A stretch of DNA of 64,000 nucleotides from a bacterium (GCA_965249525.1 OZ252237.1:1241470-1305469); one strand, 5' to 3'. Shown: positions 10,184 to 51,674, counted from the first letter of the stretch. Numbers and translations are program-made. The notes: generated by a model from the letters alone, not told the origin.

Positions 10184-10312
10184 ACCCCAACATAACTATC
10201 GCTAAGTATAACTATACCCCCAACCATAACCTGCCACCAGCCCCATACGCAATACACCCCACTAACCCACTCCCCTGGGCTATGCTGTTGGGTTTCACCA
10301 ATGGTGCTGATG

Positions 10313-12004: not shown

Positions 12005-12224
12005 CAACCCGCCCAACTAGCATCAAGGCTGCTGTCTGTAACCAGGCAGCAGCCTTTTTTGCAGCGTCCTGACTGCCAAAAAAAATATCCCCATACCCTA
12101 GCATTTGATACAAAGAGGGTGTATTATTATAAACTGGCTTTTGGTGCAAACCCAGGCTATCTTGTAAGAGGCTATCTTGTAAGCTCGTGAGGCATTCTAT
12201 ACTCACATTTCTAAGGAGAAAATT
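12002..12224 (+). repeat. RCC1 cassette leader L1 (extended -10 replaced by tatccccatacc)
   Basis: Same terminator and 15-bp repeats as other copies, but no TATAAT. Confidence 0.9.
12025..12060 (+). terminator. Intrinsic terminator, reiterated after cassette genes
   Basis: aaggctgctgtct-gtaacc-aggcagcagcctt stem with one G.U pair, followed by a T run. Confidence 0.85.
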
Positions 12225-13565
12225 ATGAAAACTCTACAATCATCATATACTGTACCGGGCCTGTTTGTCTTGCTGTTATCGGCTGTACTGCTAAGCCTTG
12301 CCAGCTGCGGCGGGGGTGGCGGCGGTGGCGGTAGCAACGGTGGCGGCAGCCCTGCCATAACAGTTAGTGCTATCTCAGCAGGGGATAGCCACACTTGTGC
12401 CATCCTCAGCACAGGCGCCGCCAAATGCTGGGGAGAGAACTTCAACGGCCAGCTGGGTGACGACAGCACCGATGACAGCAATCTTCCTGCGGCTGTGGTG
12501 CAAACCCCTGCCGATACTTCTGACACTGACTCTGATAAGCATACCTCTGCCGTTCTGCTGGACAGCGGGGTCACTGCCATCTCAGCAGGGTTGGTTCACA
12601 CTTGTGCCATTCATAATGGTGCCGCTAAGTGCTGGGGGTTCAACGGCAATGGACGGCTGGGTGACGGCTTCACCGATGACAGCCCTATTCCCGTGCAGGT
12701 TTCAGGGCTGACTAGCCAGGTCACTGCCATCTCAGCAGGGGGTGCTCACACTTGTGCCATTCACAATACTGCTGGCGAGGGTGAAACTGAGGCACTTGCC
12801 GCCAAATGCTGGGGGCTCAACGGCAATGGACAGCTGGGTGACGGCAGCAGCACTAAGAGGTTAACACCCGTGCAGGTTTCTGGGCTGGGCAACGGAGTCA
12901 TTGACATCTCAGCAGGGGAAGTTCACACTTGTGCCATTCACAGGACTACTGCTGGCAAGCATGCCGCCAAGTGCTGGGGGAGCAACAACAAGGGTCAGCT
13001 GGGCAACGGCGCTACTAGCGGCGAGCAAAATGCACCCGTGCCAGTTGGCGGCGAGCTAGGCGATCTGGTCACTGACATCTCAGCAGGGAATGCTCACACT
13101 TGTGCCATTCAAGATGGCAAAGCCTGGTGCTGGGGTGATAACAGCCTGGGTCAGCTGGGCAGAGTGCTTGGTGTATCTCTAATGGTAAGCGGTACACCCG
13201 AGGCTGTTGTGGACCCTACCAGTGACGGCAGAGACCAGCTAAGCGGGGTCACTGACATCTCAGCAGGGAGTGGTCACACTTGTGCGCTGCTTGCCAGCGG
13301 TGTTGTCCACTGCTGGGGGCTCAACAGCAATGGACAGCTGGGCGTCGACACCACCAGCACTGCAAGCAGCACTATTCCCCTGCAGGTTGAAGGGCTGGAA
13401 AGCCAGGTCACTGCCATCTCAGCAGGGGATGAGCACACTTGTGCACTGCTTGACAGCGGTGTTGTCCAATGCTGGGGGAGTAACGGCGATGGACAGCTGG
13501 GGGTTGGCACACTTTCAGGTGATGCTACCTCAAGCCCCACGCCCCAAGCCCTAAGCTTTGAGTAA
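12225..13565 (+). CDS. RCC1-repeat (7-blade) lipoprotein g2
   Basis: Same leader, LASC + 8 Gly, seven repeats. Confidence 0.9.
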   Translation: MKTLQSSYTVPGLFVLLLSAVLLSLASCGGGGGGGGSNGGGSPAITVSAISAGDSHTCAILSTGAAKCWGENFNGQLGDDSTDDSNLPAAVVQTPADTSDTDSDKHTSAVLLDSGVTAISAGLVHTCAIHNGAAKCWGFNGNGRLGDGFTDDSPIPVQVSGLTSQVTAISAGGAHTCAIHNTAGEGETEALAAKCWGLNGNGQLGDGSSTKRLTPVQVSGLGNGVIDISAGEVHTCAIHRTTAGKHAAKCWGSNNKGQLGNGATSGEQNAPVPVGGELGDLVTDISAGNAHTCAIQDGKAWCWGDNSLGQLGRVLGVSLMVSGTPEAVVDPTSDGRDQLSGVTDISAGSGHTCALLASGVVHCWGLNSNGQLGVDTTSTASSTIPLQVEGLESQVTAISAGDEHTCALLDSGVVQCWGSNGDGQLGVGTLSGDATSSPTPQALSFE

Positions 13566-13789
13566 CAACCCGCCCAACTAGCATCAAGGCTGCTGTCTGT
13601 AACCAGGCAGCAGCCTTTTTTGCAGCTGCTTGACTGCCAAAAAATGAATATCTATGCTATAATAGCATTTAGCACAAAGCAAGTGAATTGATTATAAACT
13701 GGCTTTTAGCACAAACCCGGGCTATCTTGTAAGAGGCTATCTTGTAAGCTCGTGAGGCAACCTATATTCACACTTCTAAGGAGGAGATT
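13563..13789 (+). repeat. RCC1 cassette leader L2
   Basis: Terminator, ATGCTATAATAGCAT palindrome, 2x15-bp repeat, AAGGAGG. Confidence 0.9.
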
Positions 13790-15127
13790 ATGAAAACTCT
13801 ACAATCATCATATACTGTGCCGGGCCTGTTTGTCTTGCTGTTATCGGTTGTGCTGCTAAGCCTTGCCAGCTGCGGTGGAGGTGGCGGCGGCGGTGGAGGC
13901 GGCACCCCTGCCATCGCTAAGCCTAAACCCCCAATAGATGCCATAGCCATCTCAGCAGGGGAAGAACACGCTTGTGCCGTTCTCAGCACAGGCGCCGCCA
14001 AGTGCTGGGGGCTCAACGGCAGTGGACGGCTGGGTGACGGCAGCAAAGCTGACAGGGATATTCCCGTGGCTGTCAGCACGCTGGGCAGCGGGGTCTCTGC
14101 CATCTCAGCAGGGAGTGAGCACACTTGTGCCATTCATAAGGGCGTCGCCAAGTGCTGGGGTTTTAACATATATGGTCAGCTGGGTGACGACAGCATCTCT
14201 GACAGCAATAGTCCCAAGAATGTCGCAGATCTAGGCAGCGGGGTCACTGCCATCTCAGCAGGGAATAGCCACACTTGTGCCATCCTCAGCACAGGTGCCG
14301 CCATGTGCTGGGGAAGTAACCAAAATGCCCAGCTGGGTAAAGGCACCGATATTCCATCCAGCACCACGCCTGTGGAGGTCACGAATCTGGGCAGCGGGGT
14401 CGAAAAAATCTCAGCAGGGGGGTCTCACACTTGTGCCATTCACAATACGGCTACGGCTAGCGTGAGTGACCCTACCCCTGACCCTGTACTTGCCGCCAAG
14501 TGCTGGGGAGATGACACAGAGGGTCAGCTGGGCGACGGCGACACCACCACTGGAGGCCCTACACCCGTGCAGGTTTCTGGGCTGGGCAGCGGAGTCATTG
14601 ACATCTCAGCAGGGCAAAATCACACTTGTGCCATTCACAATACTGCTGCCGAGGGTGAAACTGAGCAACTTGCCGCCAAGTGCTGGGGGAACGACGGCAA
14701 TGGACGGCTGGGCAACGGCAGTGGTGACTCCAATGCAAATGCACCCGTGGCAGTTAGCGGCGAGCTAAACAGCGGAGTCACTGACATCTCAGCAGGGTAT
14801 ACTCACACTTGTGCCGTTCAAGATGGTAAAGTCTGGTGCTGGGGTGATAACAGCCAGGGTCAGCTGGGCAGAGAGATTGCTGTAACATTTCTAACAGCGA
14901 ACCACCGTATACCCGTGGCTGTGGCAGCCAACGATTACATGGGAGACCCGCTAGACGACCAGCTAAGCGGGGTCACCGCCATCTCAGCAGGGCAATTTCA
15001 CACTTGTGCGCTGCTTGACAGCGGTGTTGTCCAATGCTGGGGGAGTAACGTCCAGGGACAGCTGGGGGTTGGCAAAGATCCTATTGATGACTCTACCGCC
15101 ACGCCCCAAACCGTGCGTGAACCCTAA
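13790..15127 (+). CDS. RCC1-repeat (7-blade) lipoprotein g3
   Basis: LASC + 10 Gly, seven repeats, ends TPQTVREP. Confidence 0.9.
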   Translation: MKTLQSSYTVPGLFVLLLSVVLLSLASCGGGGGGGGGGTPAIAKPKPPIDAIAISAGEEHACAVLSTGAAKCWGLNGSGRLGDGSKADRDIPVAVSTLGSGVSAISAGSEHTCAIHKGVAKCWGFNIYGQLGDDSISDSNSPKNVADLGSGVTAISAGNSHTCAILSTGAAMCWGSNQNAQLGKGTDIPSSTTPVEVTNLGSGVEKISAGGSHTCAIHNTATASVSDPTPDPVLAAKCWGDDTEGQLGDGDTTTGGPTPVQVSGLGSGVIDISAGQNHTCAIHNTAAEGETEQLAAKCWGNDGNGRLGNGSGDSNANAPVAVSGELNSGVTDISAGYTHTCAVQDGKVWCWGDNSQGQLGREIAVTFLTANHRIPVAVAANDYMGDPLDDQLSGVTAISAGQFHTCALLDSGVVQCWGSNVQGQLGVGKDPIDDSTATPQTVREP

Positions 15128-15135
15128 GCTTTAAG

Positions 15136-15362
15136 TAACAACCCGCCCAACTAGCATCAAGGCTGCTGTCTGTAACTAGGCAGCAGCCTTTTTTGCAGCG
15201 TCCTGACTGCCAAAAAATGAATATCTATGCTATAATAGCATTTAGCACAAAGCAAGTGAATTGATTATAAACTGGCTTTTAGCACAAACTCAGGCTATCT
15301 TGTAAGAGGCTATCTTGTAAGCTCGTGAGGCATTCTATACTCACATTTCTAAGGAGAAAATC
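15136..15362 (+). repeat. RCC1 cassette leader L3
   Basis: Near-identical to L2/L6. Confidence 0.9.
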
Positions 15363-16670
15363 ATGAAAACTCTACAATCATCATATACTGTACCGGGCGT
15401 CTTTGTCTTGCTGTTATCGGCTGTGCTGCTAAGCCTTGCCAGCTGCGGCGGCGGTGGCGGTAGCAACGGTGGCGGCAGCCCTGCCATAACAGTTAGTGCT
15501 ATCTCAGCAGGGAGTGAGCACACTTGTGCCATCCTCAGCACAGGCGCCGCCAAATGCTGGGGAGAGAACTTCAACGGCCAGCTGGGTGACGACAGCACCG
15601 ATGACAGCAATCTTCCTGCGGCTGTGGTGCAAACCCCTGCCGATACTTCTGACTCTGATAAGCATACCTCTGCCGTTCTGCTGGACAGCGGGGTCACTGC
15701 CATCTCAGCAGGGGGGGGTCACACTTGTGCCATTCATAATGGCGCCGCCAAGTGCTGGGGAAACAACGGACAGGGACGGCTGGGCGACGGCAGCGATACT
15801 GAAAGCAATATTCCCGTGGCTGTCGCAGATCTGGGCAGCGGGGTCACTGCCATCTCAGCAGGGGGTCAGCACACTTGTGCCGTTCACAATGGCGCCGCCC
15901 AGTGCTGGGGTTTAAACCGACTTGGTCAGCTGGGTGACGGCACCGGCATGGAAAGGCTCACACCCACGCAGGTTTCTGAGCTGGGCAGCGGAGTCATTGA
16001 CATCTCAGCAGGGCAAAATCACACTTGTGCCATTCACAATACTGGTACCGAAGATGACCCTGTACTTGCCGCCAAGTGCTGGGGGAGCAATTTCAGTGGC
16101 AAGCTGGGCGACGGCAGCGATACTGAAAGCAATATTCCCGTGGCTGTCGCAGATCTGGACAGCGATGTCACTGCCATCTCAGCAGGGGCTAACCACACTT
16201 GTGCCGTTCATAATGGCGCCGCCAAGTGCTGGGGGAGCGACAGCAAGGGGAAGCTGGGCAACGGCAGTAGTAAAACCCGCAATCAAACCGAACCCATGCT
16301 TGTGGGAGAAACTGGCAGCGAGCTAAGCAGCGGAGTCTCTGCCATCTCAGCAGGGAATCTTCACACTTGTGCCGTTCAAAATACTAAAGCCTGGTGCTGG
16401 GGTGATAACAGCATGGGTCAGCTGGGTGTAAACATTGCTATAACTGCAGCGGAAAGCCATAGACCCGTGGCTGTGGAAACCACCCTTGACGGCAAAATGA
16501 AGCTAAGCGGGGTCACTGCCATCTCAGCAGGGTTGGAGCACACTTGTGCGCTGCTTGCCACTGGCGTTGTCCAATGCTGGGGGAGTAACGTCCAGGGACA
16601 GCTGGGGGTTGGTGCACTTCCAGATGGTGATGCCACAACCCTCACGCCCCAAACCCTGAGCTTTAAGTAA
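15363..16670 (+). CDS. RCC1-repeat (7-blade) lipoprotein g4
   Basis: LASC + 5 Gly, seven repeats. Confidence 0.9.
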   Translation: MKTLQSSYTVPGVFVLLLSAVLLSLASCGGGGGSNGGGSPAITVSAISAGSEHTCAILSTGAAKCWGENFNGQLGDDSTDDSNLPAAVVQTPADTSDSDKHTSAVLLDSGVTAISAGGGHTCAIHNGAAKCWGNNGQGRLGDGSDTESNIPVAVADLGSGVTAISAGGQHTCAVHNGAAQCWGLNRLGQLGDGTGMERLTPTQVSELGSGVIDISAGQNHTCAIHNTGTEDDPVLAAKCWGSNFSGKLGDGSDTESNIPVAVADLDSDVTAISAGANHTCAVHNGAAKCWGSDSKGKLGNGSSKTRNQTEPMLVGETGSELSSGVSAISAGNLHTCAVQNTKAWCWGDNSMGQLGVNIAITAAESHRPVAVETTLDGKMKLSGVTAISAGLEHTCALLATGVVQCWGSNVQGQLGVGALPDGDATTLTPQTLSFK

Positions 16671-16807
16671 CAACCCGCCCAACTAGCATCAAGGCTGCTG
16701 TCTGTAACCAGGCAGCAGCCTTTTTTGCAGCGTCCTGACTGCCAAAAAATGAATATCTATGCTATAATAGCATTTAGCACAAAGCAAGTGAATTTATTAT
16801 AAACTGG
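16668..16807 (+). repeat. Truncated cassette leader L4, joined to the dapD upstream region
   Basis: Follows the consensus to ataaactgg, then diverges; promoter part retained, 15-bp repeats and RBS lost. Confidence 0.85.
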
Positions 16808-16843
16808 TTTTGGGTATTCTCCATTTGTTCGGCTGGCATCCCT

Positions 16844-17977
16844 ATGACCCCTGCCTTTGTTGACCACCTCCAGCAGCTTATTTTACTGCGCATACATTCG
16901 CAGCCAAACACCCTCGCTGTGGTGCCCAGACTGCCCCCAGAGTCGTTGTTCGCTGCCCTGCTGCCACTGTTGGCAGCCCCGTTGGCAGCCCCGCCTGCCA
17001 GCAGCAGCCATGACTCCCCCGTGCTGTGTCGTCTGGACTCCTCAAAGCTGAACAGTCTGCCTGCGGCGCAATTACGCACATTAGAAGCGCATGAGGGAAT
17101 AGCTGCCTTGCTGGCATCAAAGGCGCAATGGGAACAGGTGCAAGTGGAGGTGGTGCGTTCAAAGCGCGCGGGGCTGCTGGAGAGACTGAGTCAGCGACAA
17201 GGTGATGCAGCAGACACCCAAGCATTAATTGAATTGATGGACAGCGGTCAGGTGCGCTGTGCAGAGAAAGTGCGGGGAGTATGGCAGCCGCAGGCTTGGG
17301 TGATTCAGGGGGTGTTGAATTATTTTGCCACCCATGAAATGCAAGTGATGGAACGTGCAGGCTGGGACAAGATTCCCTTAAAGACTCAAGGTTGGGATGC
17401 AGCCCGCTTTGCAGCTGGGGGGGTGCGGTATGCCCCTGGTGCGGTGGTGCGCAAGGGTGCCTGGCTGGGGGCGGGTACGGTGGTGATGAGTCATACATTT
17501 GTGAATATAGGTGCTTGGGTGGGGGGCGAGGGGGTGATGCTGGACACAGGCTCGCGGGTGGCTTCTGCTGCCCAGGTGGGCAAGGGAGTAAAGCTGGGGG
17601 CTGGCAGTGGCTTGGAAGGTGTGTTGGAACCGGCTGGTCGTATGCCTACAATTGTAGAAGACCAGGTGCGCATTGGGGCGATGTGTGAAGCTGCAGGCAT
17701 TATTGAGGAAGGTGCGGTGCTGGCCAGCGGTGTGGTGATGGCTTCTGGCAAGAAAATATATGACGAAGCCACAGGCAAGCTCATTCCTCCCCTGCCCCTA
17801 ACAGTGGAGGGCGTGACCTACCAGCTGCCAGTGATTCCAGCCTGGCGCTTGGCTGTGGGCGGGGCCTTGGTATCCAACAACACCGCTACCGATGCGGTGA
17901 TTCTCAAACCTGGCGATTTGCGAGAACGTGGTACCCTGCGCCATTTTGAGCGTCAAGGTCTGCTGTACAGCCGATAA
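16844..17977 (+). CDS. dapD: Tetrahydrodipicolinate N-succinyltransferase with N-terminal extension
   Basis: LMDSGQVRCAEK, WDKIPLK, PGAVVRKGA, FVNIGAWV, GVLEP and hexapeptide repeats. Confidence 0.85.
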   Translation: MTPAFVDHLQQLILLRIHSQPNTLAVVPRLPPESLFAALLPLLAAPLAAPPASSSHDSPVLCRLDSSKLNSLPAAQLRTLEAHEGIAALLASKAQWEQVQVEVVRSKRAGLLERLSQRQGDAADTQALIELMDSGQVRCAEKVRGVWQPQAWVIQGVLNYFATHEMQVMERAGWDKIPLKTQGWDAARFAAGGVRYAPGAVVRKGAWLGAGTVVMSHTFVNIGAWVGGEGVMLDTGSRVASAAQVGKGVKLGAGSGLEGVLEPAGRMPTIVEDQVRIGAMCEAAGIIEEGAVLASGVVMASGKKIYDEATGKLIPPLPLTVEGVTYQLPVIPAWRLAVGGALVSNNTATDAVILKPGDLRERGTLRHFERQGLLYSR

Positions 17978-17999
17978 AACACCATTTAAGCATGTGGGG

Positions 18000-18033
18000 A
18001 AATCCTCTGCTGGAAATCGCAGGGGTTTTTTTA
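18000..18033 (+). terminator. Intrinsic terminator after dapD
   Basis: aaatcctctgc-tggaaatc-gcaggggttt + T run. Confidence 0.75.
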
Positions 18034-18102
18034 TGCAATTCTTATTTATGATTCTTATGAAATATTACTTGACAATAGGCAAGAATTTGACACAATGGAA
18101 CT

Positions 18103-18121
18103 GAGAATAATAATCATTATT
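18103..18121 (+). promoter_or_regulatory. Fur-family box overlapping a putative -10
   Basis: GAGAATAATAATCATTATT matches GATAATGATAATCATTATC at 16/19; TTGACA at 18069 and 18087. Confidence 0.7.
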
Positions 18122-18159
18122 GTTTATCGGGTCATGGTTGATGGTGAGGTAAGAGTTTT

Positions 18160-19401
18160 ATGACGGAATTGGTAATCAAAGTTCACACCCGATTGCTAAA
18201 ATTGTTGGAGTTGCTGGAGGGTGAGGGGGCGCAAACTGTATTAAAGCCCAAAAACTGGCGGCGCTGGATATTTTATGGGTCCCTATCCGCTTTGTTGCTG
18301 CATCCAGAGACTCGCAGGTTGTTGTTGGAAGTGCTGCGCAACACCTATTTGACGGTGGTGGTGTTTGTGGCAGCCACCTTGGCGATATTTTATTTTCTGG
18401 AGGATTGGTTTCGGGTGGATGTGGCGGCGTTGTTGCAGCGTCATCGTCGCATTCAGCCGATGATTGCTGCCTTAGTGGGGGCTTTGCCTGGATGCGGGGG
18501 GGCGATTATGGTGGTGACACAGTATGTGAAGGGGGGCATCAGTTTTGGGGCATTGATTGCGGTGTTGACTGCAACCATGGGAGATGCGGCGTTCTTGCTT
18601 TTGGCACGCAAGCCCTTGGTGGCATTGGGATTATTTGCTGTCGGTGCTTTGGTGGGGACTGTTACAGGGATGGTGGTGGATGCCATTCATGGACCTGATT
18701 TTCTGCGCAGCAAGAATGTGCCGCAGCACATCAGTACACAGCGGGATTTGTTGGCGCCGCAGCCCTTATTTGGTTTTGCTTGGTTGTTGGCATTGCTTCC
18801 TGGGTTGGTGTTGGGCTTGGCGGATGCGTTTCAGTTAAATCTTGACGGCTTGCTGGGATTTAGTGAAGGATTTTGGCTGCCTTCTATGGTGGTAGGAGTG
18901 GCAGGAGGCACTTTAAGCATGCTGATGTGGGATTTGCTGCCTTATCGCCAGCCTCCTGTGAAGCCCAAGGGTTGTCGGGTGGAACGAAAAGACATGTTCC
19001 GCTGGCAGTATGGTTCTACCATTAGCCGCATTGTGAATGACACCAACTTTGTTACCAAGTGGGTGGTGATGGCATTTTTGTTTTATGAGTTGTTGTTATT
19101 CTTTAGCGGGGTGGAGTTGGGGAATGTGTTTCGTTTGTGGGCGCCGTTGGTGCCGCTGGTTGCAGTGCTGATGGGCTTTATCCCTGGTTGTGGACCACAG
19201 GTGTTGGTAACAGCCCTGTATGTGGATGGCTTCATTCCGTTTTCTGCCCAGCTGGGCAATGCAATTAGCAATGATGGAGATGCCCTCTTCCCTGCTATTG
19301 CCATAGCCCCCAAGGCTTCTATTGTGGCCACCTTGTATAGTGCTATTCCTGCGGTGCTGATGTCATACGGTTGGTATTGGCTGTTTGAAAGGGGGGGATA
19401 G
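18160..19401 (+). CDS. Putative manganese/metal transporter (DUF2899-type permease)
   Basis: Two internal repeats with GALPGCGGAI and GFIPGCGPQV, TATMGDAAF, NAISNDGDALFP. Confidence 0.8.
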   Translation: MTELVIKVHTRLLKLLELLEGEGAQTVLKPKNWRRWIFYGSLSALLLHPETRRLLLEVLRNTYLTVVVFVAATLAIFYFLEDWFRVDVAALLQRHRRIQPMIAALVGALPGCGGAIMVVTQYVKGGISFGALIAVLTATMGDAAFLLLARKPLVALGLFAVGALVGTVTGMVVDAIHGPDFLRSKNVPQHISTQRDLLAPQPLFGFAWLLALLPGLVLGLADAFQLNLDGLLGFSEGFWLPSMVVGVAGGTLSMLMWDLLPYRQPPVKPKGCRVERKDMFRWQYGSTISRIVNDTNFVTKWVVMAFLFYELLLFFSGVELGNVFRLWAPLVPLVAVLMGFIPGCGPQVLVTALYVDGFIPFSAQLGNAISNDGDALFPAIAIAPKASIVATLYSAIPAVLMSYGWYWLFERGG

Positions 19402-19516
19402 CCACACTTGTGCCCTTCACAATGGCGCCGCCAAGTGCTGGGGGCGCAACTTAGGCAGGCGGGGCGACGGCAGCACCCATACCAGCAACAACCCCAAAAC
19501 CGTGTTGTTTGAATAA
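19394..19516 (+). pseudogene. Orphan last blade of a CARDB-RCC1-type gene
   Basis: Reads GDSHTCALHNGAAKCWGRNLGRRGDGSTHTSNNPKTVLFE*; the 3' end aaccgtgttgtttgaataagccgtggc matches the end of the 24464 gene. Confidence 0.85.
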
Positions 19517-19574
19517 GCCGTGGCGGGCTACTTATACAGCTGCGGGGGGCGGTTCCCCCTGCATCACACCGCCC

Positions 19575-19758
19575 TGGCAGCAGCCTTTTTTGCAGCGTCC
19601 TGACTGCCAAAAAATGAATATTATGCTATAATAACATTTAGCACAAAGCAAGTGAATTGATTATAAACTGGCTTTTGGTGCAAACCCAGGCTATCTTGTA
19701 AGAGGCTATCTTGTAAGCTCGTGAGGCATACTATATTCACACTTCTAAGGAGGAGATT
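19575..19758 (+). repeat. RCC1 cassette leader L5 (begins at terminator 3' half)
   Basis: ggcagcagcctttttt...tgctataat...2x15-bp repeat...AAGGAGG. Confidence 0.9.
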
Positions 19759-21165
19759 ATGAAAACTCTACAATCATCATATACTGTGCCGAGCGTGTTT
19801 GTCTTGCTGTTATCGGCTGTGCTGCTAAGCCTTGCCAGCTGCGGCGGGGGTGGAGGCGGCGGCGGTGGCAGCAGCAACGGCGGCAGCAGCGCTGCCATAA
19901 AAGTTAGTGCTATCTCAGCAGGGAATAGCCACACTTGTGCCATCCTCAGCACAGGCGCCGCCCAGTGCTGGGGAAATAACGCCACCGGCCAGCTGGGCAA
20001 CAACAGCACCGCTGAGAGCAATCTTCCTGTGGCTGTGGTGCAAACCCCTGCCGATACTTCTGACTCTGATAAGCATACCTCTGCCGTTCTGCTGGACAGC
20101 GGGGTCGATAAAATCTCAGCAGGGAGTGAGCACACTTGTGCCGTCCTCAGCACAGGCGCCGCCCAGTGCTGGGGGAGTAACGTGAATGGACGGCTGGGCA
20201 ACAGTGATACCGATGACAGCAGTACTCCCATGGATGTCACAGGGCTGAACAGCGAGGTCACTGCCATCTCAGCAGGGGGGCAGCACACTTGTGCCATTCA
20301 TGGTGGCGCCGCCTTCTGCTGGGGGAACATGAGCGATGGACGGCTGGGTAACAACATGAATCCCGCGGCTAGTGCTACGATTAAGCATAGCGATGTTCCT
20401 GTGGCTGTGCTGCTAACCGCTGAAACCACTACCACCAGTGGCGGCACCTCCACCACCACCGCTGCCACATTCATGGAGGGCGATGTGGATGCCATCATCT
20501 CAGCAGGGACTTTTCACACTTGCGCCGTTCACCTGGAAACAGCCTACTGCTGGGGGGCCGATGGCCATGGACGGCTGGGCAACGGCGCTGATATTACCGA
20601 CAATCAAGGCCTACCCACGCTTGTGGATGTGAGCGCGCTGGAGAGCGGAGTCATGATTAACATCTCAGCAGGGCTTCAGCACACTTGTGCCATTCACAGG
20701 ACTACTGCTGGCGGTGTTAATAAGGATGCCGCCTACTGCTGGGGGAGCAACAGCCATGGTCAGCTGGGCAACGGTGCTACTAGCGGCGAGCAAAATGCAC
20801 CCGTGCCAGTTGGCGGCGAGCTAGGCGATCTGGTCACTGACATCTCAGCAGGGGGGGTTCACACTTGTGCCATTCAAGATGGCAAAGCCTGGTGCTGGGG
20901 TAATAACAACCTGGGTCAGCTGGGCAGAGTGCTTGGTGTATCTCCAATGGTAAGCGGTACACCCGAGGCTGTGGCAACCACCGATGGCGGCAAACAGCTA
21001 AGCGGGGTCAATAAAATCTCAGCAGGGAACACTCACACTTGTGCGCTGCTTAACACTGGTGTTGTCCAATGCTGGGGGAGTAACGGACAGGGACGGCTGG
21101 GGGTTGGCGCGCTTGAAGGTGGTGATGCCACAACCTTCACGCCCCAAACCCTGAGCTTTAAGTAA
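19759..21165 (+). CDS. RCC1-repeat (7-blade) lipoprotein g5
   Basis: LASC + 9 Gly, seven repeats. Confidence 0.9.
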   Translation: MKTLQSSYTVPSVFVLLLSAVLLSLASCGGGGGGGGGSSNGGSSAAIKVSAISAGNSHTCAILSTGAAQCWGNNATGQLGNNSTAESNLPVAVVQTPADTSDSDKHTSAVLLDSGVDKISAGSEHTCAVLSTGAAQCWGSNVNGRLGNSDTDDSSTPMDVTGLNSEVTAISAGGQHTCAIHGGAAFCWGNMSDGRLGNNMNPAASATIKHSDVPVAVLLTAETTTTSGGTSTTTAATFMEGDVDAIISAGTFHTCAVHLETAYCWGADGHGRLGNGADITDNQGLPTLVDVSALESGVMINISAGLQHTCAIHRTTAGGVNKDAAYCWGSNSHGQLGNGATSGEQNAPVPVGGELGDLVTDISAGGVHTCAIQDGKAWCWGNNNLGQLGRVLGVSPMVSGTPEAVATTDGGKQLSGVNKISAGNTHTCALLNTGVVQCWGSNGQGRLGVGALEGGDATTFTPQTLSFK

Positions 21166-21389
21166 CAACCCTTCCCGCCACCACCAAGGCTGCTGTCTGT
21201 AACCAGGCAGCAGCCTTTTTTGCAGCGTCCTGACTGCCAAAAAATGAATATCTATGCTATAATAGCATTTAGCACAAAGCAAGTGAATTGATTATAAACT
21301 GGCTTTTGGTGCAAACCCAGGCTATCTTGTAAGAGGCTATCTTGTAAGCTCGTGAGGCAACCTATATTCACACTTCTAAGGAGGAGATT
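21163..21389 (+). repeat. RCC1 cassette leader L6
   Basis: Matches L2/L3 apart from the left terminator flank. Confidence 0.9.
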
Positions 21390-22751
21390 ATGAAAACTCT
21401 ACAATCATCATATACTGTGCCGGGCCTGTTTGTCTTGCTGTTATCGGCTGTGCTGCTAAGCCTTGCCAGCTGCGGCGGCGGAGGCGGCGGCGGTGGCAGC
21501 AGCAACGGCGGCGGCAGCGCTGCCATAAAAGTTAGTGCTATCTCAGCAGGGAATAGCCACACTTGTGCCATCCTCAGCACAGGCGCCGCCCAGTGCTGGG
21601 GAAATAACGCCACCGGCCAGCTGGGCAACAACAGCACCGCTGAGAGCAATCTTCCTGTGGCTGTGGTGCAAACCCCTGCCGATACTTCTGACTCTGATAA
21701 GCATACCTCTGCCGTTCTGCTGGACAGCGGGGTCACTGCCATCTCAGCAAGGGGTCTTCATACTTGTGCCATTCATAATGGTGCCGCCAAGTGCTGGGGG
21801 TTCAACGGCAATGGACGGCTGGGTACCGCCTCCAGCACTGACACCAAGATTCCCCATCAGGTTTTAGGAGAGCTGGACAGCGATGCCACTACCAGTGCCA
21901 TCTCAGCAGGGGGGCAGCACACTTGTGCCATTCATGGTGGCGCCGCCTTCTGCTGGGGGAACATGCTCAGTGGACGGCTGGGTAACAACATGGTTGCCGA
22001 TGCGTTTAGCGATTTTCCTGTGGCTGTGCTGCTAAAAGCTGCAGTTACCACCGACCCCACCGAACCTGCCAAATTCATGGACGGCGATGTGGATGCCATC
22101 ATCTCAGCAGGGGAGTCTTACACTTGTGCCGTTCACCTGGAAAAAGCCTACTGCTGGGGGTACAACGGCAGTGGACAGCTGGGCAACGACACTACCGACA
22201 ATAAAAGCCTAGCCACGCTTGTGAGCGTGGACAGCGGAGTCATGATTAACATCTCAGCAGGGCTTCAGCACACTTGTGCCATTCACAGGACTACTGCTGG
22301 CGGTGTTAATAAGGATGCCGCCTACTGCTGGGGGAGCAACAGCCATGGTCAGCTGGGCAACGGTGTTACTAGAGGCAATCAAAGTGCACCCGTGGAAGTT
22401 GGCGGCGAGCTAGGCGATCTGGTCACTGACATCTCAGCAGGGGCTTCTCACACTTGTGCCGTTCAAGATGGCAAAGCCTGGTGCTGGGGTAATAACAGCC
22501 AGGGTCAGCTGGGCAGAGTGCTTGGTGTATCTCCAATGGTAAGCGCTACACCCGTGGCTGTGGACCCCAGCGGTGACGGCAGAGGCCAGCTAAGCGGGGT
22601 CAATAAAATCTCAGCAGGGCAATTTCACACTTGTGCGCTGCTTAACACTGGCGTTGTCCAATGCTGGGGGGGTAACGGCAATGGACAGCTGGGGGTTGGC
22701 AGCAAGCCTGCTGGCTCAACCTCCACGCCCCAAACCGTGCGTGAACCCTAA
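21390..22751 (+). CDS. RCC1-repeat (7-blade) lipoprotein g6
   Basis: LASC + 8 Gly, seven repeats, ends TPQTVREP. Confidence 0.9.
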   Translation: MKTLQSSYTVPGLFVLLLSAVLLSLASCGGGGGGGGSSNGGGSAAIKVSAISAGNSHTCAILSTGAAQCWGNNATGQLGNNSTAESNLPVAVVQTPADTSDSDKHTSAVLLDSGVTAISARGLHTCAIHNGAAKCWGFNGNGRLGTASSTDTKIPHQVLGELDSDATTSAISAGGQHTCAIHGGAAFCWGNMLSGRLGNNMVADAFSDFPVAVLLKAAVTTDPTEPAKFMDGDVDAIISAGESYTCAVHLEKAYCWGYNGSGQLGNDTTDNKSLATLVSVDSGVMINISAGLQHTCAIHRTTAGGVNKDAAYCWGSNSHGQLGNGVTRGNQSAPVEVGGELGDLVTDISAGASHTCAVQDGKAWCWGNNSQGQLGRVLGVSPMVSATPVAVDPSGDGRGQLSGVNKISAGQFHTCALLNTGVVQCWGGNGNGQLGVGSKPAGSTSTPQTVREP

Positions 22752-22785
22752 GCTTTGAGTAACAACCCGCCTAACTAGCATCAAG

Positions 22786-22819
22786 GCTGCTGATTGCTGG
22801 TGCATTCTAACTGCTTCAG
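22786..22819 (+). repeat. Left arm of 34-bp inverted repeat (partner 24416-24449)
   Basis: gctgctgattgctggtgcattctaactgcttcag; 33/34 to the reverse complement of the partner. Confidence 0.9.
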
Positions 22820-22900
22820 AGGGAGGGGGTGTTGTTTTTGTGATAGCATGATGCCATGAATATCTGGGGGAGGAAGGGGGTGGGTGTTGGTTGATAAGCG

Positions 22901-24016
22901 ATGGAACAGGGAACTTTGATTGTAGGGGGCGGAGTGATAGGCTTGGCTTGCGGATGGGTGTTGTGCAAGCGGGGCGAGCGGGTATTGTTGTGTGAACGGG
23001 GAGAGGCGGGAAAGGAGGCTTCTTGGGCTGCTGCGGGGATGCTGGCACCCTCAAGTGAGGTGGAGCTGGGGGAGGAAGATGTGAATTGGCTGGGTCGTGA
23101 GAGTTTGCGGTTGTATCCTGATTTTGTGAAGGAGTTGGAAGCAGCCAGCGGGGAGCGGGTGGAATTTCGCCAGGAGGGGACGCTGCAGCTGGCTTTGGAT
23201 GCGGATGAGCTGCGAGAGTTAGAACGGCGGTTTGAGCGTCAGCGTAAAATGAAGGCAGAGGTGCGCTGGTTGTCTGGAGAAGAGGCACAGGATTTGGAGC
23301 GGGGTTTATCGCCTCGGGTAGTGGGTGGGATTGATGCCTTTGGGGATTATCAGGTAGACAATCGCCAGTTGGTGAGGGCTTTGCGCCAGGCATTTTTGTC
23401 TGAGGGGGGGGAGCTGCGTGAGCATTGTGAGGTGGAGGCATTGCTGCCGAGAAACGGGGGTGCGCCGGGGGTGCGCGCAGCAGGAGAAGAGCTGTACTAC
23501 CAGCGGGTTTTGTTGACTGCTGGCTGCTGGAGTGGGAGCATTGCAGGTTTGGATTGCCTAGGGTCTTTGCCGCTGCGACCGATAAAAGGTCAGATGCTTT
23601 GCCTGAGGTCGCCGCTGAATGCTGCACCACGACATGTGCTGCGTGGTCATGGGGTGTATTTGACTCCGCGGGGGGATGGTCGGGTGTTGGTGGGGGCATC
23701 GGTGGAGGAGCGGGGTTTCAACAAACAGCTGACTGCTGGTGTGTTGTTTTCTTTGCTGCGGGAAGCCCGACGTCTGCTTCCTGGCGTGGATGAGTGGCCT
23801 ATGGAAGAGGCTTGGGCAGGCTTAAGACCAGGCACCCGAGACAATGCTCCCATTATGGGTCAGCTGGCTGCGGGACTTTTTGTGGCTACGGGACATTATC
23901 GCAATGGTATCTTGCATACACCCATCACCGCCTACAGCCTTAGCCGTCTCATGTTGGATAATCACTGCCCCCCTGTTATTCAGCCCTTCTCTGCCAAGCG
24001 ATTCCAAGTCCCTTAA
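22901..24016 (+). CDS. thiO: Glycine oxidase ThiO
   Basis: IVGGGVIG FAD site, ASWAAAGMLAP, PIKGQML, WAGLRPGT, TGHYRNGILHTP. Confidence 0.88.
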   Translation: MEQGTLIVGGGVIGLACGWVLCKRGERVLLCERGEAGKEASWAAAGMLAPSSEVELGEEDVNWLGRESLRLYPDFVKELEAASGERVEFRQEGTLQLALDADELRELERRFERQRKMKAEVRWLSGEEAQDLERGLSPRVVGGIDAFGDYQVDNRQLVRALRQAFLSEGGELREHCEVEALLPRNGGAPGVRAAGEELYYQRVLLTAGCWSGSIAGLDCLGSLPLRPIKGQMLCLRSPLNAAPRHVLRGHGVYLTPRGDGRVLVGASVEERGFNKQLTAGVLFSLLREARRLLPGVDEWPMEEAWAGLRPGTRDNAPIMGQLAAGLFVATGHYRNGILHTPITAYSLSRLMLDNHCPPVIQPFSAKRFQVP

Positions 24017-24415: not shown

Positions 24416-24449
24416 CTGAAGCAGTTAGAATACACCAGCAATCAGCAGC
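24416..24449 (-). repeat. Right arm of 34-bp inverted repeat
   Basis: ctgaagcagttagaatacaccagcaatcagcagc. Confidence 0.9.
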
Positions 24450-24463
24450 TTTGCTGCCACGGC

Positions 24464-26806
24464 TTATTCAAACAACACGGTTTGGGGGGTGTTGCTGCTA
24501 TTGGTGCTGCCGTCGCCCAGCCGTCCATTGCCGTTATGCCCCCAGCACTTGGCCTGGCCTGCATGAACCGCACAAGTGTGATTCTCCCCTGCTGAAATAA
24601 CAGTGACATCGCTAGTCAGCCCCCTCACCTGCACGGGGGTTTCCTCCTGTGCGGTGCCGTCGTTGCCCAGCTTACCTAAGTTGTGCCCCCAGCACCAGGC
24701 ACTTCCGTTGGCAATCGCACAAGTGAACCCATCCCCTGCTGAGATAGCAGTGACATTGCTGCTTAGCTTGCTGCCAACGGCTCCCACCTCCACGGGAATA
24801 GTATTGTCAGTGGTGCTGCCGTTGCCCAGCTGGCCGTTGTCGTTCAATCCCCAGCACTTGGCGGCACCATTGTGAACCGCACAAGTATGTTTCTCCCCTG
24901 CTGAGATGGCAGAGACCTGGCTGCCCAGCCCACTCACCTGCACGGGGATGTTCTTCTGTGCGGTGCCATTGGCGGCGTAGCCCAGCTGTCCATTGCCCCC
25001 AAACCCCCAGCACCAGGCACCTCCGCTGACCAGCGCACAAGAGTGTGCAACCCCTGCTGTTATGTTCTCAACCCCGCTGTCCAGCAGGACGGCTTCGTTA
25101 CCACCATCGGCAGGGGTTTTCACCACAGCCGCAGGAAAAATGCGGTCAGTGGTGGTATTGTCGTCGCCCAGCCGTCCATTGGTGGCAGACCCCCAGCACC
25201 AGGCACCTCCGCTGATCACCGCACAAGTGTGATACCTCCCTGCTGCCAGGTGCGTAACCCCGCTGTCCAGCAGGGTGTCAGGGGGGGTTTTCACCACAGC
25301 TACGGGAACACGGCTAGTAGTTGTGCTGTTGTCGCCCAGCTGACCACTCACGCCATCTCCCCAGCACCAGACTCCCTCGTTCACAATGGCACAAGTGTGC
25401 TCCCTCCCTGCTGAGATGGTACTGGCAAGATGTGCCAAAACCATAATTGCAACCCTATCCGAACAGTCATTGGTACTGTCGGAGTCTCCAGCAACTGCAT
25501 CCACACAGGCATAGTAGTGATAAGTGCCAGGGGGAAGGTCATCAGGTAGGGTAATGGTGGTGGAAATATCAAAAGTAGCCCCAACAGCCAGTGCATTCAC
25601 CGTGGTGCTTGTGCCTACCTCAGTATCGTCATCAGGATTGCCTACGAGGTTTAGAGAACGGTAGATGCTAAGGGTGCTGCTGTCAGCCCTGAGGCTGCCA
25701 GTGTTGCGCACCGTGACCGAAAAGCTGAAAGAGTTCCCACGCTGCAAGACGCTGGTGTCAGCAGTAGCTGAGACCAACCCGAGGTTTGGAACAGTTGCAA
25801 CCATGATTGTATGGGAACAGTTGTTGGCGCTGTTGGAATCACCAGTAACTGCATCCACACAGGCATAGTAGTAATAAGTGCCAGGGGGAAGGTCATCAGG
25901 TAGGGTAATGGTGGTGGAAATATCAAAAGTAGCCCCAACAGCCAGTGCATTCACCGTGCTTGTGCCTGCCTCAGTATCATCAGCTGGAACAAGGGTCTTG
26001 TCTGCCGAGCGGTAGATTCTAAGGGTGCTGCTGCCAGCACTGAGGCTGCCAGTGTTGCGCACCGTGACCGAAAAGCTGAAAGATTTCCCACTCTGCAAGG
26101 TGCTGGTGTCAGCACTAGCGGATATTAGATTGAGGTCTGGAACAGGTGTTGCCGAAACGCTGACAACCACAGAGAAACAGTTGTTGGCGGGGCTGCTGTC
26201 ATCATGGTGTGCAACACAAGCCCCATAATAGTAAGTACCAGCAGTATCAGGTGCGGTAATCTCGATGCCTGCATGGTCAAAGGTGTTGCTGCCTGCCTCG
26301 GCACTGATGGCATCCAGCGTCACTGGCGAACCTTTTGGGGTGTCAGAGTCAGTGATGGTGGTGTCGTCTGTTGACTGGTAGTAAGTGAGGGTGCCGCCGC
26401 TGGCTGCCTCTGTACTGCCTTGATTGGTGATAGTAGCCAAGAGGGTAAAGGAGGTGGACACCTCTGGCGAAGATGGGTTTGCCGAAGCTGAGATGCTTAA
26501 ATCGGTTGCCGGTGTCCCTGCGGGTGTCCCTGCGGGGGTCTCTGCGGGTGTTGCTGCGGGTGTTGCTGCGGGTGTTGCTGCGGGTGTCTCTGCGGGTGTG
26601 CCGCTGCCGTCGCTCTCTTCTTTTCCGCCTCCGCCGCCGCAGCTGCCCAGCAGCAGCAGCACAGGCAGCAACAGCACCCACAATAGCGGGGCAAGAGAGA
26701 AACCCAGATTGCCAGATACAGCCTGAGGGGAGGTGGTGGTTTTAGTAGAGTTAAGCAATATAAAAGCTTGTCTGGAAACTTTGGTTATTGCTTTCCAAAC
26801 CCCCAT
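24464..26806 (-). CDS. Lipoprotein with 3 CARDB-like domains and 6 RCC1 repeats
   Basis: Lipobox LGSC + Gly, PAAT repeats, CARDB 2 and 3 near-duplicates; start moved to MGVWK because the promoter lies inside the ORF-track extension. Confidence 0.85.
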   Translation of the reverse strand: MGVWKAITKVSRQAFILLNSTKTTTSPQAVSGNLGFSLAPLLWVLLLPVLLLLGSCGGGGGKEESDGSGTPAETPAATPAATPAATPAETPAGTPAGTPATDLSISASANPSSPEVSTSFTLLATITNQGSTEAASGGTLTYYQSTDDTTITDSDTPKGSPVTLDAISAEAGSNTFDHAGIEITAPDTAGTYYYGACVAHHDDSSPANNCFSVVVSVSATPVPDLNLISASADTSTLQSGKSFSFSVTVRNTGSLSAGSSTLRIYRSADKTLVPADDTEAGTSTVNALAVGATFDISTTITLPDDLPPGTYYYYACVDAVTGDSNSANNCSHTIMVATVPNLGLVSATADTSVLQRGNSFSFSVTVRNTGSLRADSSTLSIYRSLNLVGNPDDDTEVGTSTTVNALAVGATFDISTTITLPDDLPPGTYHYYACVDAVAGDSDSTNDCSDRVAIMVLAHLASTISAGREHTCAIVNEGVWCWGDGVSGQLGDNSTTTSRVPVAVVKTPPDTLLDSGVTHLAAGRYHTCAVISGGAWCWGSATNGRLGDDNTTTDRIFPAAVVKTPADGGNEAVLLDSGVENITAGVAHSCALVSGGAWCWGFGGNGQLGYAANGTAQKNIPVQVSGLGSQVSAISAGEKHTCAVHNGAAKCWGLNDNGQLGNGSTTDNTIPVEVGAVGSKLSSNVTAISAGDGFTCAIANGSAWCWGHNLGKLGNDGTAQEETPVQVRGLTSDVTVISAGENHTCAVHAGQAKCWGHNGNGRLGDGSTNSSNTPQTVLFE

Positions 26807-26864
26807 GGATGAAGAATGATGACTGCTATCAATAGCAAAAACAGCAAATTCAAGATAGTCATAT

Positions 26865-26893
26865 ATCATAGAATTTTTAAAACCGCCTGTCAA
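26865..26893 (-). promoter_or_regulatory. Sigma70-type promoter TTGACA-N17-TATGAT
   Basis: Minus strand TTGACA 26893-26888, 17-bp spacer, TATGAT 26870-26865. Confidence 0.7.
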
Positions 26894-27042
26894 CTCTAAA
26901 AAAAGAGATTTTTTTATACAGGCAAAAAGCAATTGTTCAAAGGATGGTTTTGCATGTGAAAGTCAAACATGCAAGGATAGAAGTGGTTCTTAGTAGAAAT
27001 CAAAAGTTTTATTAAAACTGCTATTGCTTATGAGGAGGTGCT

Positions 27043-51650: not shown

Positions 51651-51674
51651 ATCTGTCAGATAAATCTTGTGGTT

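What the first reader, a model, noticed from the sequence alone, without database searches (positions are those of the whole stretch)
16668..19758. dapD and a metal transporter are embedded in the RCC1 array; the transporter takes its stop codon from an RCC1 relic
Seen: leader L4 breaks at ~16807 so dapD inherits the cassette promoter. The transporter ends gaaagggggggaTAG, and this GGGGATAGCCACACTTGTGCC is the RCC1 anchor motif, continuing as a complete last blade ending TVLFE* like the 24464 gene. Inference: a 2.6-kb block was captured by microhomology at the leader and at a blade anchor, destroying a CARDB-RCC1 gene. This suggests the anchors are recombinogenic and can traffic core genes.
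Basis: partly seen in the sequence, partly recalled or inferred. Interest (0 to 1): 0.62.

Follow-up and report, generated by a model that had tools for sequence, protein, structure and literature searches.

The report
RCC1 arrays invaded a conserved gene string
The two housekeeping-type genes did not jump into the repeat-gene array: the sister species shows they sit in their old place, and a repeat-gene family specific to this genome spread into the tiny gaps around them, replacing one gene's stop codon and probably the other gene's promoter.

Summary

**What holds**
- The leader after cassette 4 matches the canonical leader to 16813 (not 16807), then turns unique 30 bp before the dapD-like ATG.
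- The ArsP_2 transporter ends WYWLFE-RGG-TAG. The TAG lies inside GAT-AGC of a one-blade RCC1 relic (19394-19516), which most resembles the last blade of the CARDB-RCC1 gene at 24464.
- 22 of 24 homologs, including the sister species, end in LFE directly before the stop; none has RGG. The stop is therefore non-native.

**What does not hold**
- The same-genus genome G001 has yegS-dapD-arsP2-thiO-acyP contiguous, with no RCC1 between them.
- The cassette leader has 17 copies here and none in G001 or 19 other relatives.
- A second array splits tolA from tolB, which are adjacent in G001.
- So RCC1 genes spread into the short intergenic gaps of an ancestral gene string. The 2.6-kb block was not captured.

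**Inferred**
- The relic is most simply what a deletion, or a ragged insertion end, left when it fell on the arsP2 stop codon.
- dapD keeps only the cassette promoter upstream.
- arsP2 keeps its own Fur-box promoter.

This is an ordinary mechanism in a tidy new example.

The parts
15363..16670 (+). Cassette 4, the last lipoprotein-RCC1 gene of array A (four cassettes, 10541-16670)
   Evidence: Pfam RCC1, RCC1_2 and WD40_RLD hits. Lipoprotein signal MKTLQSSY...LASCGG.
16671..16813 (+). Truncated cassette leader L4'. It holds the cassette terminator (stem 16691-16722, then a U run) and the promoter-like site 16739-16768. The break is at 16813/16814.
   Evidence: 98% identity to positions 1-152 of the 235-bp canonical spacer. 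The hairpin folds at -25.2 kcal/mol, z -5.75. CTGCCA-18-TATAAT with an upstream TG, as in the other leaders.
16814..16843 (+). 30-bp remnant of the native dapD upstream region
   Evidence: Unique in the genome. G001 has CTTTTGG 26 nt before its dapD ATG.
16844..17977 (+). DapD-like acyltransferase of the long SAR324 type (N-terminal extension plus hexapeptide-repeat domain)
   Evidence: Pfam THDPS_N_2 and Hexapep pass their cut-offs. NCBIfam DapD equivalogs fall below theirs: 180 vs 204 bits, 155 vs 375. Best PDB hits are DapD structures, E 1e-43. Single copy. Present in 16 of 19 family genomes. Homologs are named DapD or DUF2322 in SAR324 MAGs.
18004..18035 (+). Intrinsic terminator after dapD
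   Evidence: Found by the terminator scan. Folds at -16.5 kcal/mol, z -3.1, followed by U7.
18087..18121 (+). The transporter's own promoter (TTGACA-16-AATAAT, 18087-18114), overlapped by a Fur-box-like palindrome (18103-18121)
   Evidence: 11 of 12 promoter match. The palindrome block is conserved in the G001 spacer. It is the best match to the E. coli Fur consensus in the whole genome, 16/19 and unique at that level. Two Fur-family genes are present.
18160..19401 (+). ArsP_2 ('putative manganese transporter') gene. The native part ends at 19389 (…WYWLFE). 19390-19401 is the non-native RGG plus TAG.
   Evidence: PF11449 at 412 bits, profile positions 1-359 of 359 on residues 50-409. NF037962 at 232 bits. 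Homolog C-termini.
19391..19397 (+). G7 run at the junction, directly before the TAG
   Evidence: Read from the sequence. With G6 the transporter would be fused in frame to the 41-aa blade; with G8 it would gain 22 aa. This follows from my reading of the frames.
19394..19516 (+). Relic of one RCC1 blade, the last blade of a CARDB-RCC1-type gene, with its own TAA. It lies in the +1 frame relative to the transporter.
   Evidence: BLAST matches. It is the only blade outside an RCC1 ORF. C-terminal classes of all RCC1 ORFs.
19517..19572 (+). 3' flank of the lost CARDB-RCC1 gene. The first 8 bp are shared with the flank of the 24464 gene; the rest is unique.
   Evidence: It forms a GC-rich structure with no clean terminator.
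19573..22792 (+). Array B: leader L5 (from spacer position 52), cassette 5 (19759-21165), leader L6, cassette 6 (21390-22751), and 41 nt of 3' flank. The array ends at 22792/22793, inside the left arm of the terminator.
   Evidence: No terminator fold follows cassette 6 (z +1.0).
22778..22819 (+). Left arm of a 42-bp inverted repeat. The right arm is 24416-24457 on the minus strand, in the 3' flank of the CARDB-RCC1 gene 24464..26932. The two arms bracket thiO-acyP.
   Evidence: 39 of 42 identical, and only these two copies in the genome.
22901..24016 (+). thiO (glycine oxidase), the ancestral downstream neighbour of arsP2
   Evidence: TIGR02352 at 322 bits against a cut-off of 251. In G001 thiO starts 61 bp after arsP2.

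Best explanation
The DapD-like gene and the ArsP_2 transporter are resident genes that have not moved. They belong to an ancestral string, yegS-dapD-arsP2-thiO-acyP, which the sister species still has intact.

In this genome a lineage-specific RCC1 family expanded. It consists of leader-bearing lipoprotein cassettes and larger CARDB-RCC1 genes. These came to occupy the 60-85-bp intergenic gaps on both sides of the pair, and RCC1 genes now sit at every local synteny break.

**3' side.** An illegitimate junction fell exactly on the arsP2 stop codon. There are two ways this could have happened, and I cannot separate them:
- a deletion of about 2.3 kb removed all but the last blade of a CARDB-RCC1 paralogue that once lay between arsP2 and the two-cassette array (the simpler reading);
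- the relic is the ragged end of an inserted RCC1 segment.

Either way, translation now runs three extra codons (RGG) to a TAG formed by the GAT-AGC (Asp-Ser) codons of the blade's GDSHTCA anchor. This harmless extension is why the junction was tolerated.

**5' side.** A four-cassette array ends in a leader cut at position 152 of 235, 30 bp before the dapD ATG.
- dapD has lost its native upstream region. It now lies behind the cassette terminator and the cassette's extended -10 promoter, but without the cassette's GGCTATCTTGTAAG repeats or its Shine-Dalgarno site.
- The transporter keeps its own promoter and a Fur-box-like operator.

**Shown:** both junctions, the non-native stop, the synteny, and the lineage specificity of the leader.
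**Inferred:** deletion versus ragged insertion, actual promoter use, and inversions between RCC1 paralogues.
For: 1. G001, the only other genome of 41 relatives with this transporter, has yegS, dapD, arsP2, thiO and acyP adjacent. Its spacers are 81, 275 and 61 bp and contain no RCC1.
2. In this genome arsP2 and thiO-acyP keep the same order and orientation. Only the relic and two cassettes lie between them.
3. The cassette leader has 17 matches in G000 and none in G001 or 19 other relatives. G001's best RCC1 match to cassette 4 is 35-50% identical, against 56-85% among G000 paralogues. The G001 RCC1 gene nearest the locus has an unrelated upstream region.
4. 22 of 24 ArsP_2 homologs end in LFE directly before the stop and none has RGG, so the G000 gene end is the derived state.
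5. A second, independent case lies in the same window. Two cassettes plus a nearly full leader sit between tolA and tolB, with the tolB start at the leader break. In G001 tolQ-tolR-tolA-tolB are contiguous with an 85-bp spacer.
6. All five local adjacencies that are broken relative to G001 have RCC1 genes at the breaks: hemF|yegS, yegS|dapD, arsP2|thiO, acyP|dedA, and exbB-like|gene at -20978.
7. Array ends are ragged: spacer positions 52, ~83 and ~99 on the left, and 41, 61, 69, 152 and 196 on the right. This fits illegitimate joins and not a site-specific element.
8. The relic is unique in the genome, and all five CARDB-RCC1 genes are complete with 6-7 blades. No reciprocal truncated partner exists.
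9. Promoter, terminator and Fur-box layout.
Against: - Only one sister genome is informative. Two outgroup genomes have other neighbours around dapD, so the polarity of the arsP2|thiO adjacency rests on parsimony, on the leader's absence elsewhere, and on the derived gene end.
- Upstream of dapD the ancestral neighbour yegS now lies 10 kb away in another orientation. At least one larger rearrangement has therefore happened, and the block's left flank is not ancestral.
- Deletion and ragged insertion cannot be told apart.
- Promoter use is pattern-based only. No RNA data were available.
- No reads could be laid.
- The G7 run could be a homopolymer error.
Confidence: 0.7

Rival explanations
1. 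A continuous RCC1 array (cassette 4, leader, CARDB-RCC1 gene, leader, cassette 5) existed first. A 2.6-kb dapD-arsP2 block was then captured into it by microhomology at the leader and at a blade anchor, replacing most of the CARDB-RCC1 gene.
For: - Both junctions are tight: 30 bp before the ATG and 0 bp after the last sense codon.
- L4' and L5 are 95% identical over 107 bp.
- A (C)TTTTGG microhomology is possible at the left junction.
- The block is single copy.
Against: - arsP2 is still followed by its ancestral neighbours thiO-acyP in the ancestral orientation. A transposed block would land there only by coincidence.
- No CARDB-RCC1 gene in the genome carries the cassette leader. All exact matches to the leader's opening 20-mer lie at lipoprotein-cassette arrays.
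- The leader system is younger than the dapD-arsP2-thiO string.
- No microhomology is visible at the blade anchor.
- The tolA|tolB case shows cassettes inserting into conserved strings.
Confidence: 0.1
2. RCC1 arrays around dapD-arsP2 are ancestral to the genus, and G001 lost them by deletion during genome reduction.
For: - G001 is smaller (1.60 vs 1.72 Mb) and has fewer RCC1 genes.
- Both genomes are reduced relative to the family, whose other members are 2.3-5.2 Mb.
Against: - G001 has the family-typical WLFE-TAG gene end. That end could not be regenerated from the G000 junction.
- The G001 genome has no trace of the leader anywhere.
- tolA-tolB adjacency is the general Gram-negative arrangement (established knowledge), and G001 has it.
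Confidence: 0.08
3. Assembly or sequencing artefact. Either the block is misplaced among near-identical leaders, or the G7 run is miscounted, so that the real protein is a transporter-blade fusion or ends elsewhere.
For: - The repeats are dense.
- A 7-G homopolymer sits exactly at the junction.
- G000 is a single assembly, and this protein occurs on one contig only.
- No reads could be checked.
Against: - A repeat-induced misjoin needs shared sequence on both true partners. The transitions from unique sequence to repeat at 16813 and 19390 would exist in the real genome in any case.
- Both genes are intact and full length.
- G7 gives the shortest of the three possible extensions, as selection would favour.
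Confidence: 0.07

Closest known systems
Genome rearrangement and gene-end remodelling by expanded paralogous or repeat families (IS elements, Rhs elements, rRNA operons; Neisseria Correia elements and Rickettsia palindromic elements, which donate promoters or terminators or alter reading-frame ends). Cited from my own knowledge of established literature.
   Same: - Dispersed, similar sequences lie at synteny breaks.
- Inserted copies bring a promoter and a terminator next to resident genes.
- One insertion changes the C-terminal end of a resident protein.
   Different: - The spreading unit is a complete lipoprotein gene of about 1.55 kb with its leader, not a small non-coding repeat or a transposase-bearing element.
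- The ends are ragged and there are no terminal repeats or target duplications.
- Spread therefore looks like segmental copying by illegitimate recombination.
ArsP_2 / 'putative manganese transporter' family (Pfam PF11449, NCBIfam NF037962)
   Same: - Full-length match to the family model.
- Both PGCG motifs and the NDGDALFP motif are present, as in all homologs.
   Different: - It alone carries three extra residues (RGG) and a stop codon taken from foreign sequence.
- The substrate is untested. The Fur-box-like operator hints at metal-regulated expression.
DapD, tetrahydrodipicolinate N-succinyltransferase (TIGR00965 / NF008808; PDB 3gos, 1kgq)
   Same: - The hexapeptide-repeat domain and the THDPS N-terminal helical domain match.
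- The best solved relatives are all DapD.
- It is single copy and conserved in the family.
   Different: - It carries an N-terminal extension of about 125 aa (DUF2322 in relatives).
- It scores below both equivalog cut-offs.
- Its activity is not shown.
Bacterial RCC1-repeat proteins such as the Legionella effector LegG1/PieG. Cited from my own knowledge.
   Same: Seven-bladed RCC1 propellers encoded by a bacterium with a small genome.
   Different: - Here they are lipoproteins or CARDB fusions.
- They form lineage-specific tandem arrays of 23 ORFs.
- No link to host Ran signalling was tested.

Membership tests
ArsP_2 (PF11449) transporter | Full-length match to the family HMM above the gathering score | tested here: met
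   412.5 bits against a cut-off of 32.5, profile positions 1-359 of 359. NF037962 at 231.6 against 100.
ArsP_2 (PF11449) transporter | Family-typical C-terminus ...YWLFE directly followed by the stop | tested here: not met
   G000 has WLFE plus RGG before the stop. 22 of 24 homologs end in LFE directly before the stop and none has RGG. This is a junction effect and no reason to exclude the gene from the family.
ArsP_2 (PF11449) transporter | Metal (Mn or As) transport activity | not testable with these tools
   Only indirect evidence: a conserved Fur-box-like operator.
DapD (THDP N-succinyltransferase) equivalog | Score above the NCBIfam equivalog cut-off | tested here: not met
   NF008808 at 179.9 against 204. 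TIGR00965 at 155.4 against 375.4.
DapD (THDP N-succinyltransferase) equivalog | THDPS N-terminal domain plus left-handed beta-helix hexapeptide repeats, with nearest solved structures being DapD | tested here: met
   PF14805 at 30.5 against 25, PF00132 at 31.8 against 27. The ten best PDB hits are DapD, E 1e-43 to 1e-37.
RCC1 repeat (the relic) | Blade signature (G-x-x-H-T-C-A ... C-W-G ... G-x-L-G) and nucleotide homology to RCC1 genes | tested here: met
   GDSHTCALHNGAAKCWG...RRGDG. More than 60 BLAST hits to RCC1 blades, the best at E 1e-22. It is one blade only and therefore not a functional propeller.
Mobile genetic element (IS, MITE or integron-cassette-like) as carrier of the arrays | Defined ends, terminal repeats, a target-site duplication or a recombinase | tested here: not met
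   Array ends fall at different spacer positions in every array. No repeats were seen at the ends.
Sigma-70 promoter driving dapD | -35/-10 consensus with an extended -10, and a mapped transcript start | tested here: inconclusive
   Pattern match of 10/12 with TG, the same as in three other leaders. No RNA data were available.

The most novel reading that the evidence does not exclude
The leader-bearing RCC1 cassette is a self-spreading 'terminator-promoter-gene' module. It settles in the short gaps of essential gene strings: yegS|dapD, arsP2|thiO, tolA|tolB. By cutting off native upstream regions it makes essential genes (dapD, tolB, possibly thiO) depend on cassette promoters. That dependence would protect the arrays from deletion in a shrinking genome, and it would tie cell-envelope and lysine/peptidoglycan genes to whatever signal controls the RCC1 lipoproteins.
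Probability: 0.15. Interest if true: 0.6.

Novelty: new member of a known kind. Interest (0 to 1): 0.35.

Why it matters
- It corrects the direction of the story. Core genes are not being trafficked by recombinogenic RCC1 anchors. A young, lineage-specific RCC1 lipoprotein family is colonising and reshuffling a reduced 1.7-Mb SAR324-type genome.
- It gives three concrete cases in which an expanding gene family rewires neighbours: a stop codon replaced, a promoter replaced, and the tol operon split.
- These cases are directly testable with RNA-seq and long reads.
- The locus is a useful model of how paralogue expansion and genome reduction interact.

Tried and rejected
- **The search for related loci with the transporter** in genome contigs found nothing. 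With an ABC permease it returned G001's record title only (OZ251219.1, an unclassified MAG) and distant proteobacteria.
- **Outgroup synteny.** G008 and G009 have unrelated neighbours around dapD, so they do not polarise the adjacency.
- **Literature search** for SAR324 plus RCC1 found nothing relevant.
- **Reciprocal product of an inversion.** I looked for a CARDB-RCC1 gene truncated before its last blade. None exists; all five are complete.
- **ATAGC microhomology at the right junction** (GAATAGC in G001 against GGGGATAGCC in the blade). Rejected: a join there would give TTTGAATAGCCACAC, without the observed AGGGGGGG.
- **Relic end as the native arsP2 end** (the shared TGTTTGAA / LFE*). Rejected: two other CARDB-RCC1 genes share TTTGAATAAGCC(G)TGGCA.
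- **A second degraded relic upstream of leader L0.** The similarity is marginal: 5 of 500 shuffles and 22 of 500 random genomic segments reach the score.
- **Circle excision and re-integration of array units.** Rejected for arrays A and C, whose two ends overlap by about 100-115 bp of spacer.

Full report
**1. What is there**

The window is positions 1241470-1305469 of a single-contig, 1.72-Mb genome with 49.8% G+C.

Between 10541 and 22751 lie six paralogous genes of 435-487 aa.
- Each has a lipoprotein signal (MKTLQSSY…LASCGG) and seven RCC1 blades.
- Each is preceded by a spacer of 220-235 bp. The spacer holds a strong intrinsic terminator (14-bp stem, -25.2 kcal/mol, z -5.75, then U6), a promoter-like site with an extended -10 (CTGCCA-17/18-TGcTATAAT), two copies of GGCTATCTTGTAAG, and a Shine-Dalgarno site.

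The array is interrupted at 16814-19389 by two genes.
- The first is a 377-aa DapD-like gene.
  - It has Pfam THDPS_N_2 and Hexapep domains, and its best solved relatives are all DapD.
  - It scores below both NCBIfam equivalog cut-offs.
  - It is single copy and conserved in 16 of 19 family genomes.
  - Homologs are named DapD or DUF2322 in SAR324 and 'Lambdaproteobacteria' MAGs.
- The second is a 413-aa ArsP_2 'putative manganese transporter'. It gives a full-length PF11449 match at 412 bits.

**2. The two junctions**

*Left junction.* The spacer after cassette 4 is 98% identical to positions 1-152 of the canonical spacer. By eye it matches through TTTTGG at 16808-16813. The following 30 bp, up to the ATG at 16844, are unique.
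- The cassette terminator and promoter are therefore retained.
- The GGCTATCTTGTAAG repeats and the cassette Shine-Dalgarno site are not.

*Right junction.* The transporter reads …TGG CTG TTT GAA | AGG GGG GGA TAG.
- From 19394 the +1 frame gives a complete RCC1 blade, GDSHTCALHNGAAKCWGRNLGRRGDGSTHTSNNPKTVLFE*, so the TAG lies within the GAT-AGC codons for Asp-Ser.
- The first half of the blade resembles inner blades of many RCC1 paralogues, cassette genes among them, at 91-92%.
- Its second half best matches the last blade, the stop and 8 further bases of the CARDB-RCC1 gene 24464..26932(-), at 85.7% over 98 bp. The protein-level ending (GDGST..SN.P..V.FE) is that of the CARDB-RCC1 class.
- It is the only RCC1 blade in the genome that lies outside an RCC1 ORF.

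**3. Is the stop codon foreign?**

Yes.
- In the 24 homologs fetched, at 48-67% identity, 22 end in LFE directly before the stop, most as …YG(W/Y)YWLFE*. None has RGG.
- The same-genus homolog reads TTTGAATAG.
- The Pfam profile ends at residue 409 of 413.

The native stop was lost at the junction, and three codons of junction or RCC1 sequence are now translated.

**4. Which came to which?**

Only one of 40 related genomes, G001, has this transporter. G001 is in the same genus, is 1.60 Mb, and is record OZ251219.1.

*The string in G001.* The order there is yegS-dapD-arsP2-thiO-acyP-dedA-aroC…, with thiO starting 61 bp after arsP2 and no RCC1 sequence.

*The string in this genome.* arsP2 is still followed by thiO and acyP in the same order and orientation. 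The only difference is 3.4 kb between them: the relic, leader 5, cassette 5, leader 6, cassette 6 and 41 nt of flank.
- A block transposed into a pre-existing array would land beside its old neighbours only by coincidence.

*Age of the cassette system.*
- The leader has 17 matches in this genome and none in G001 or 19 other relatives.
- G001's RCC1 genes are only 35-50% identical to cassette 4, against 56-85% among the local paralogues.
- The G001 RCC1 gene nearest the locus has an unrelated upstream region.
- The cassette system is therefore younger than the gene string.

*A second case in the same window.* Two cassettes plus an almost complete leader lie between tolA (51675-52325) and tolB (46853-48349), with the tolB start exactly at the leader break. 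In G001 tolQ-tolR-tolA-tolB are contiguous with an 85-bp spacer.

*Conclusion.* RCC1 genes moved into the short gaps of resident gene strings. The resident genes were not captured.

**5. Wider rearrangement (inferred)**

Five adjacencies that are intact in G001 are broken here: hemF|yegS, yegS|dapD, arsP2|thiO, acyP|dedA, and the exbB-like cluster against the gene at -20978.
- In every case RCC1 genes sit at the broken ends.
- Three inversions, each bounded by oppositely oriented RCC1 genes, convert one order into the other. This is my reconstruction.
- It fits homologous recombination among RCC1 paralogues. However, the region is so rich in RCC1 genes (16 of 23 ORFs within 72 kb) that the association is not a strong test.

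Array ends fall at different spacer positions in each array, and I saw no terminal repeats there. The seeding events therefore look like illegitimate joins of pieces cut from longer arrays.

Array B is the exception. It begins at spacer position 52 and ends at position 41, which is what the founder of a tandem duplication would show.
- Its downstream flank (GCTGCTGATTGCTGGTGCATTCTAACTGCTTCAG) recurs, inverted, behind the CARDB-RCC1 gene at 24464. The two copies form a 42-bp inverted repeat around thiO-acyP.

**6. Origin of the relic**

Two variants remain open.
- *Deletion.* A complete CARDB-RCC1 paralogue once lay between arsP2 and array B. A deletion of about 2.3 kb then removed everything from the arsP2 stop codon to the gene's last blade.
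- *Ragged insertion.* The relic is the ragged left end of an RCC1 segment that was inserted.

I favour the deletion variant.
- It needs only one event.
- The relic has its own unique 3' flank.
- The genome is reduced relative to its family.

No reciprocal truncated gene exists.

Microhomology at this junction is not evident. The bases AGGG/G7 at 19390-19397 are of unclear origin.

At the left junction a (C)TTTTGG microhomology is plausible, because G001 has CTTTTGG 26 nt before its dapD ATG, against 30 nt here. By my rough estimate the chance of this is about 1%, but the comparison was made after the fact.

**7. Consequences**

- *dapD.* The only plus-strand promoter-like site upstream is the cassette's, at 16739-16768, and it follows a strong terminator. 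dapD transcription probably depends on it. This is inferred.
- *arsP2.*
  - After dapD come a terminator (18004-18035) and then the transporter's own promoter (TTGACA-16-AATAAT).
  - The promoter is overlapped by GAGAATAATAATCATTATT. That block is conserved in the otherwise diverged G001 spacer.
  - It is the single best match in the genome to the E. coli Fur-box consensus, 16/19.
  - Both genomes encode two Fur-family proteins.
  - The transporter therefore kept its own, probably metal-responsive, control.
- *thiO.* Cassette 6 has lost its terminator, so thiO may now be read from the cassette 6 promoter.

**8. Caveats**

- Reads could not be examined.
- A misassembly caused by repeats cannot create a transition from unique sequence to repeat, so both junctions should be real. 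The order of arrays and the length of the G7 run remain unverified.
- With G6 the transporter would be fused in frame to the 41-aa blade. With G8 it would gain 22 residues.

**9. Verdict**

The stop is foreign, the relic is of a CARDB-RCC1-type gene, and promoter inheritance is likely.
- The capture and trafficking model is not supported.
- The mechanism is ordinary: expansion of a paralogue family, illegitimate junctions in tiny spacers, and recombination among repeats. It appears here as a clean new example in a reduced SAR324-type genome.

Noticed in passing
46853-52325 (minus strand): Two RCC1 cassettes and a nearly complete leader are inserted between tolA and tolB. The tolB start codon sits at the leader break. 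G001 has tolQ-tolR-tolA-tolB contiguous.
   Followed up: yes
22778-22819 and 24416-24457: A 42-bp inverted repeat (39 of 42 identical, the only two copies in the genome) brackets thiO-acyP. Each arm lies just after the stop of an RCC1 gene. It may be an ancestral RCC1 3' flank or the scar of an inversion.
   Followed up: partly
19384-19391 and 19506-19513: The transporter and the relic both end in LFE, and the 8 nt TGTTTGAA precede both ends (10 nt, TGTTTGAATA, if the G001 sequence stands for the ancestor). No simple recombination product explains the relic lying between the two copies. Unexplained coincidence.
   Followed up: partly
19391-19397: A G7 homopolymer lies directly before the new stop. 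G6 would fuse the transporter in frame to the 41-aa RCC1 blade. It could be a slippage site or a site of sequencing error.
   Followed up: no
18103-18121: This is the best Fur-box-like site in the whole genome (16/19 to the E. coli consensus). It overlaps the transporter promoter and is conserved in G001.
   Followed up: yes
10232-10267: The sequence just upstream of the first leader (L0) weakly resembles the 3' part of the relic (GCGACGGCAGCACCCATACCAGCAACAACCCCAAAACC). L0 and L5 also begin at the same spacer position, 52. This may be a second, older relic, but the statistics are marginal.
   Followed up: partly
29406-31447: A CARDB-RCC1 gene is split into two overlapping ORFs (415 and 300 aa), which looks like a frameshift. 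It lies between yegS and hemF, which are adjacent in G001.
   Followed up: no
10184-22900: Leaders are more alike (90-98%) than the cassette coding sequences (74-88%). This suggests selection or gene conversion on the spacers and diversification of the RCC1 blades.
   Followed up: partly
47.9-48.0 kb (TolB residues ~115-147; coordinates approximate): The N-terminal region of TolB contains a tandem peptide repeat, SIAKS about six times. The N-terminal part aligns only weakly with G001 TolB (44% over residues 20-122).
   Followed up: no
18160-19401: The transporter is not a family core gene. It is present in only 2 of 41 related genomes. The named homologs among its nearest matches are mostly alphaproteobacterial (48-56% identity). 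It was probably acquired by the genus ancestor before the RCC1 expansion.
   Followed up: partly
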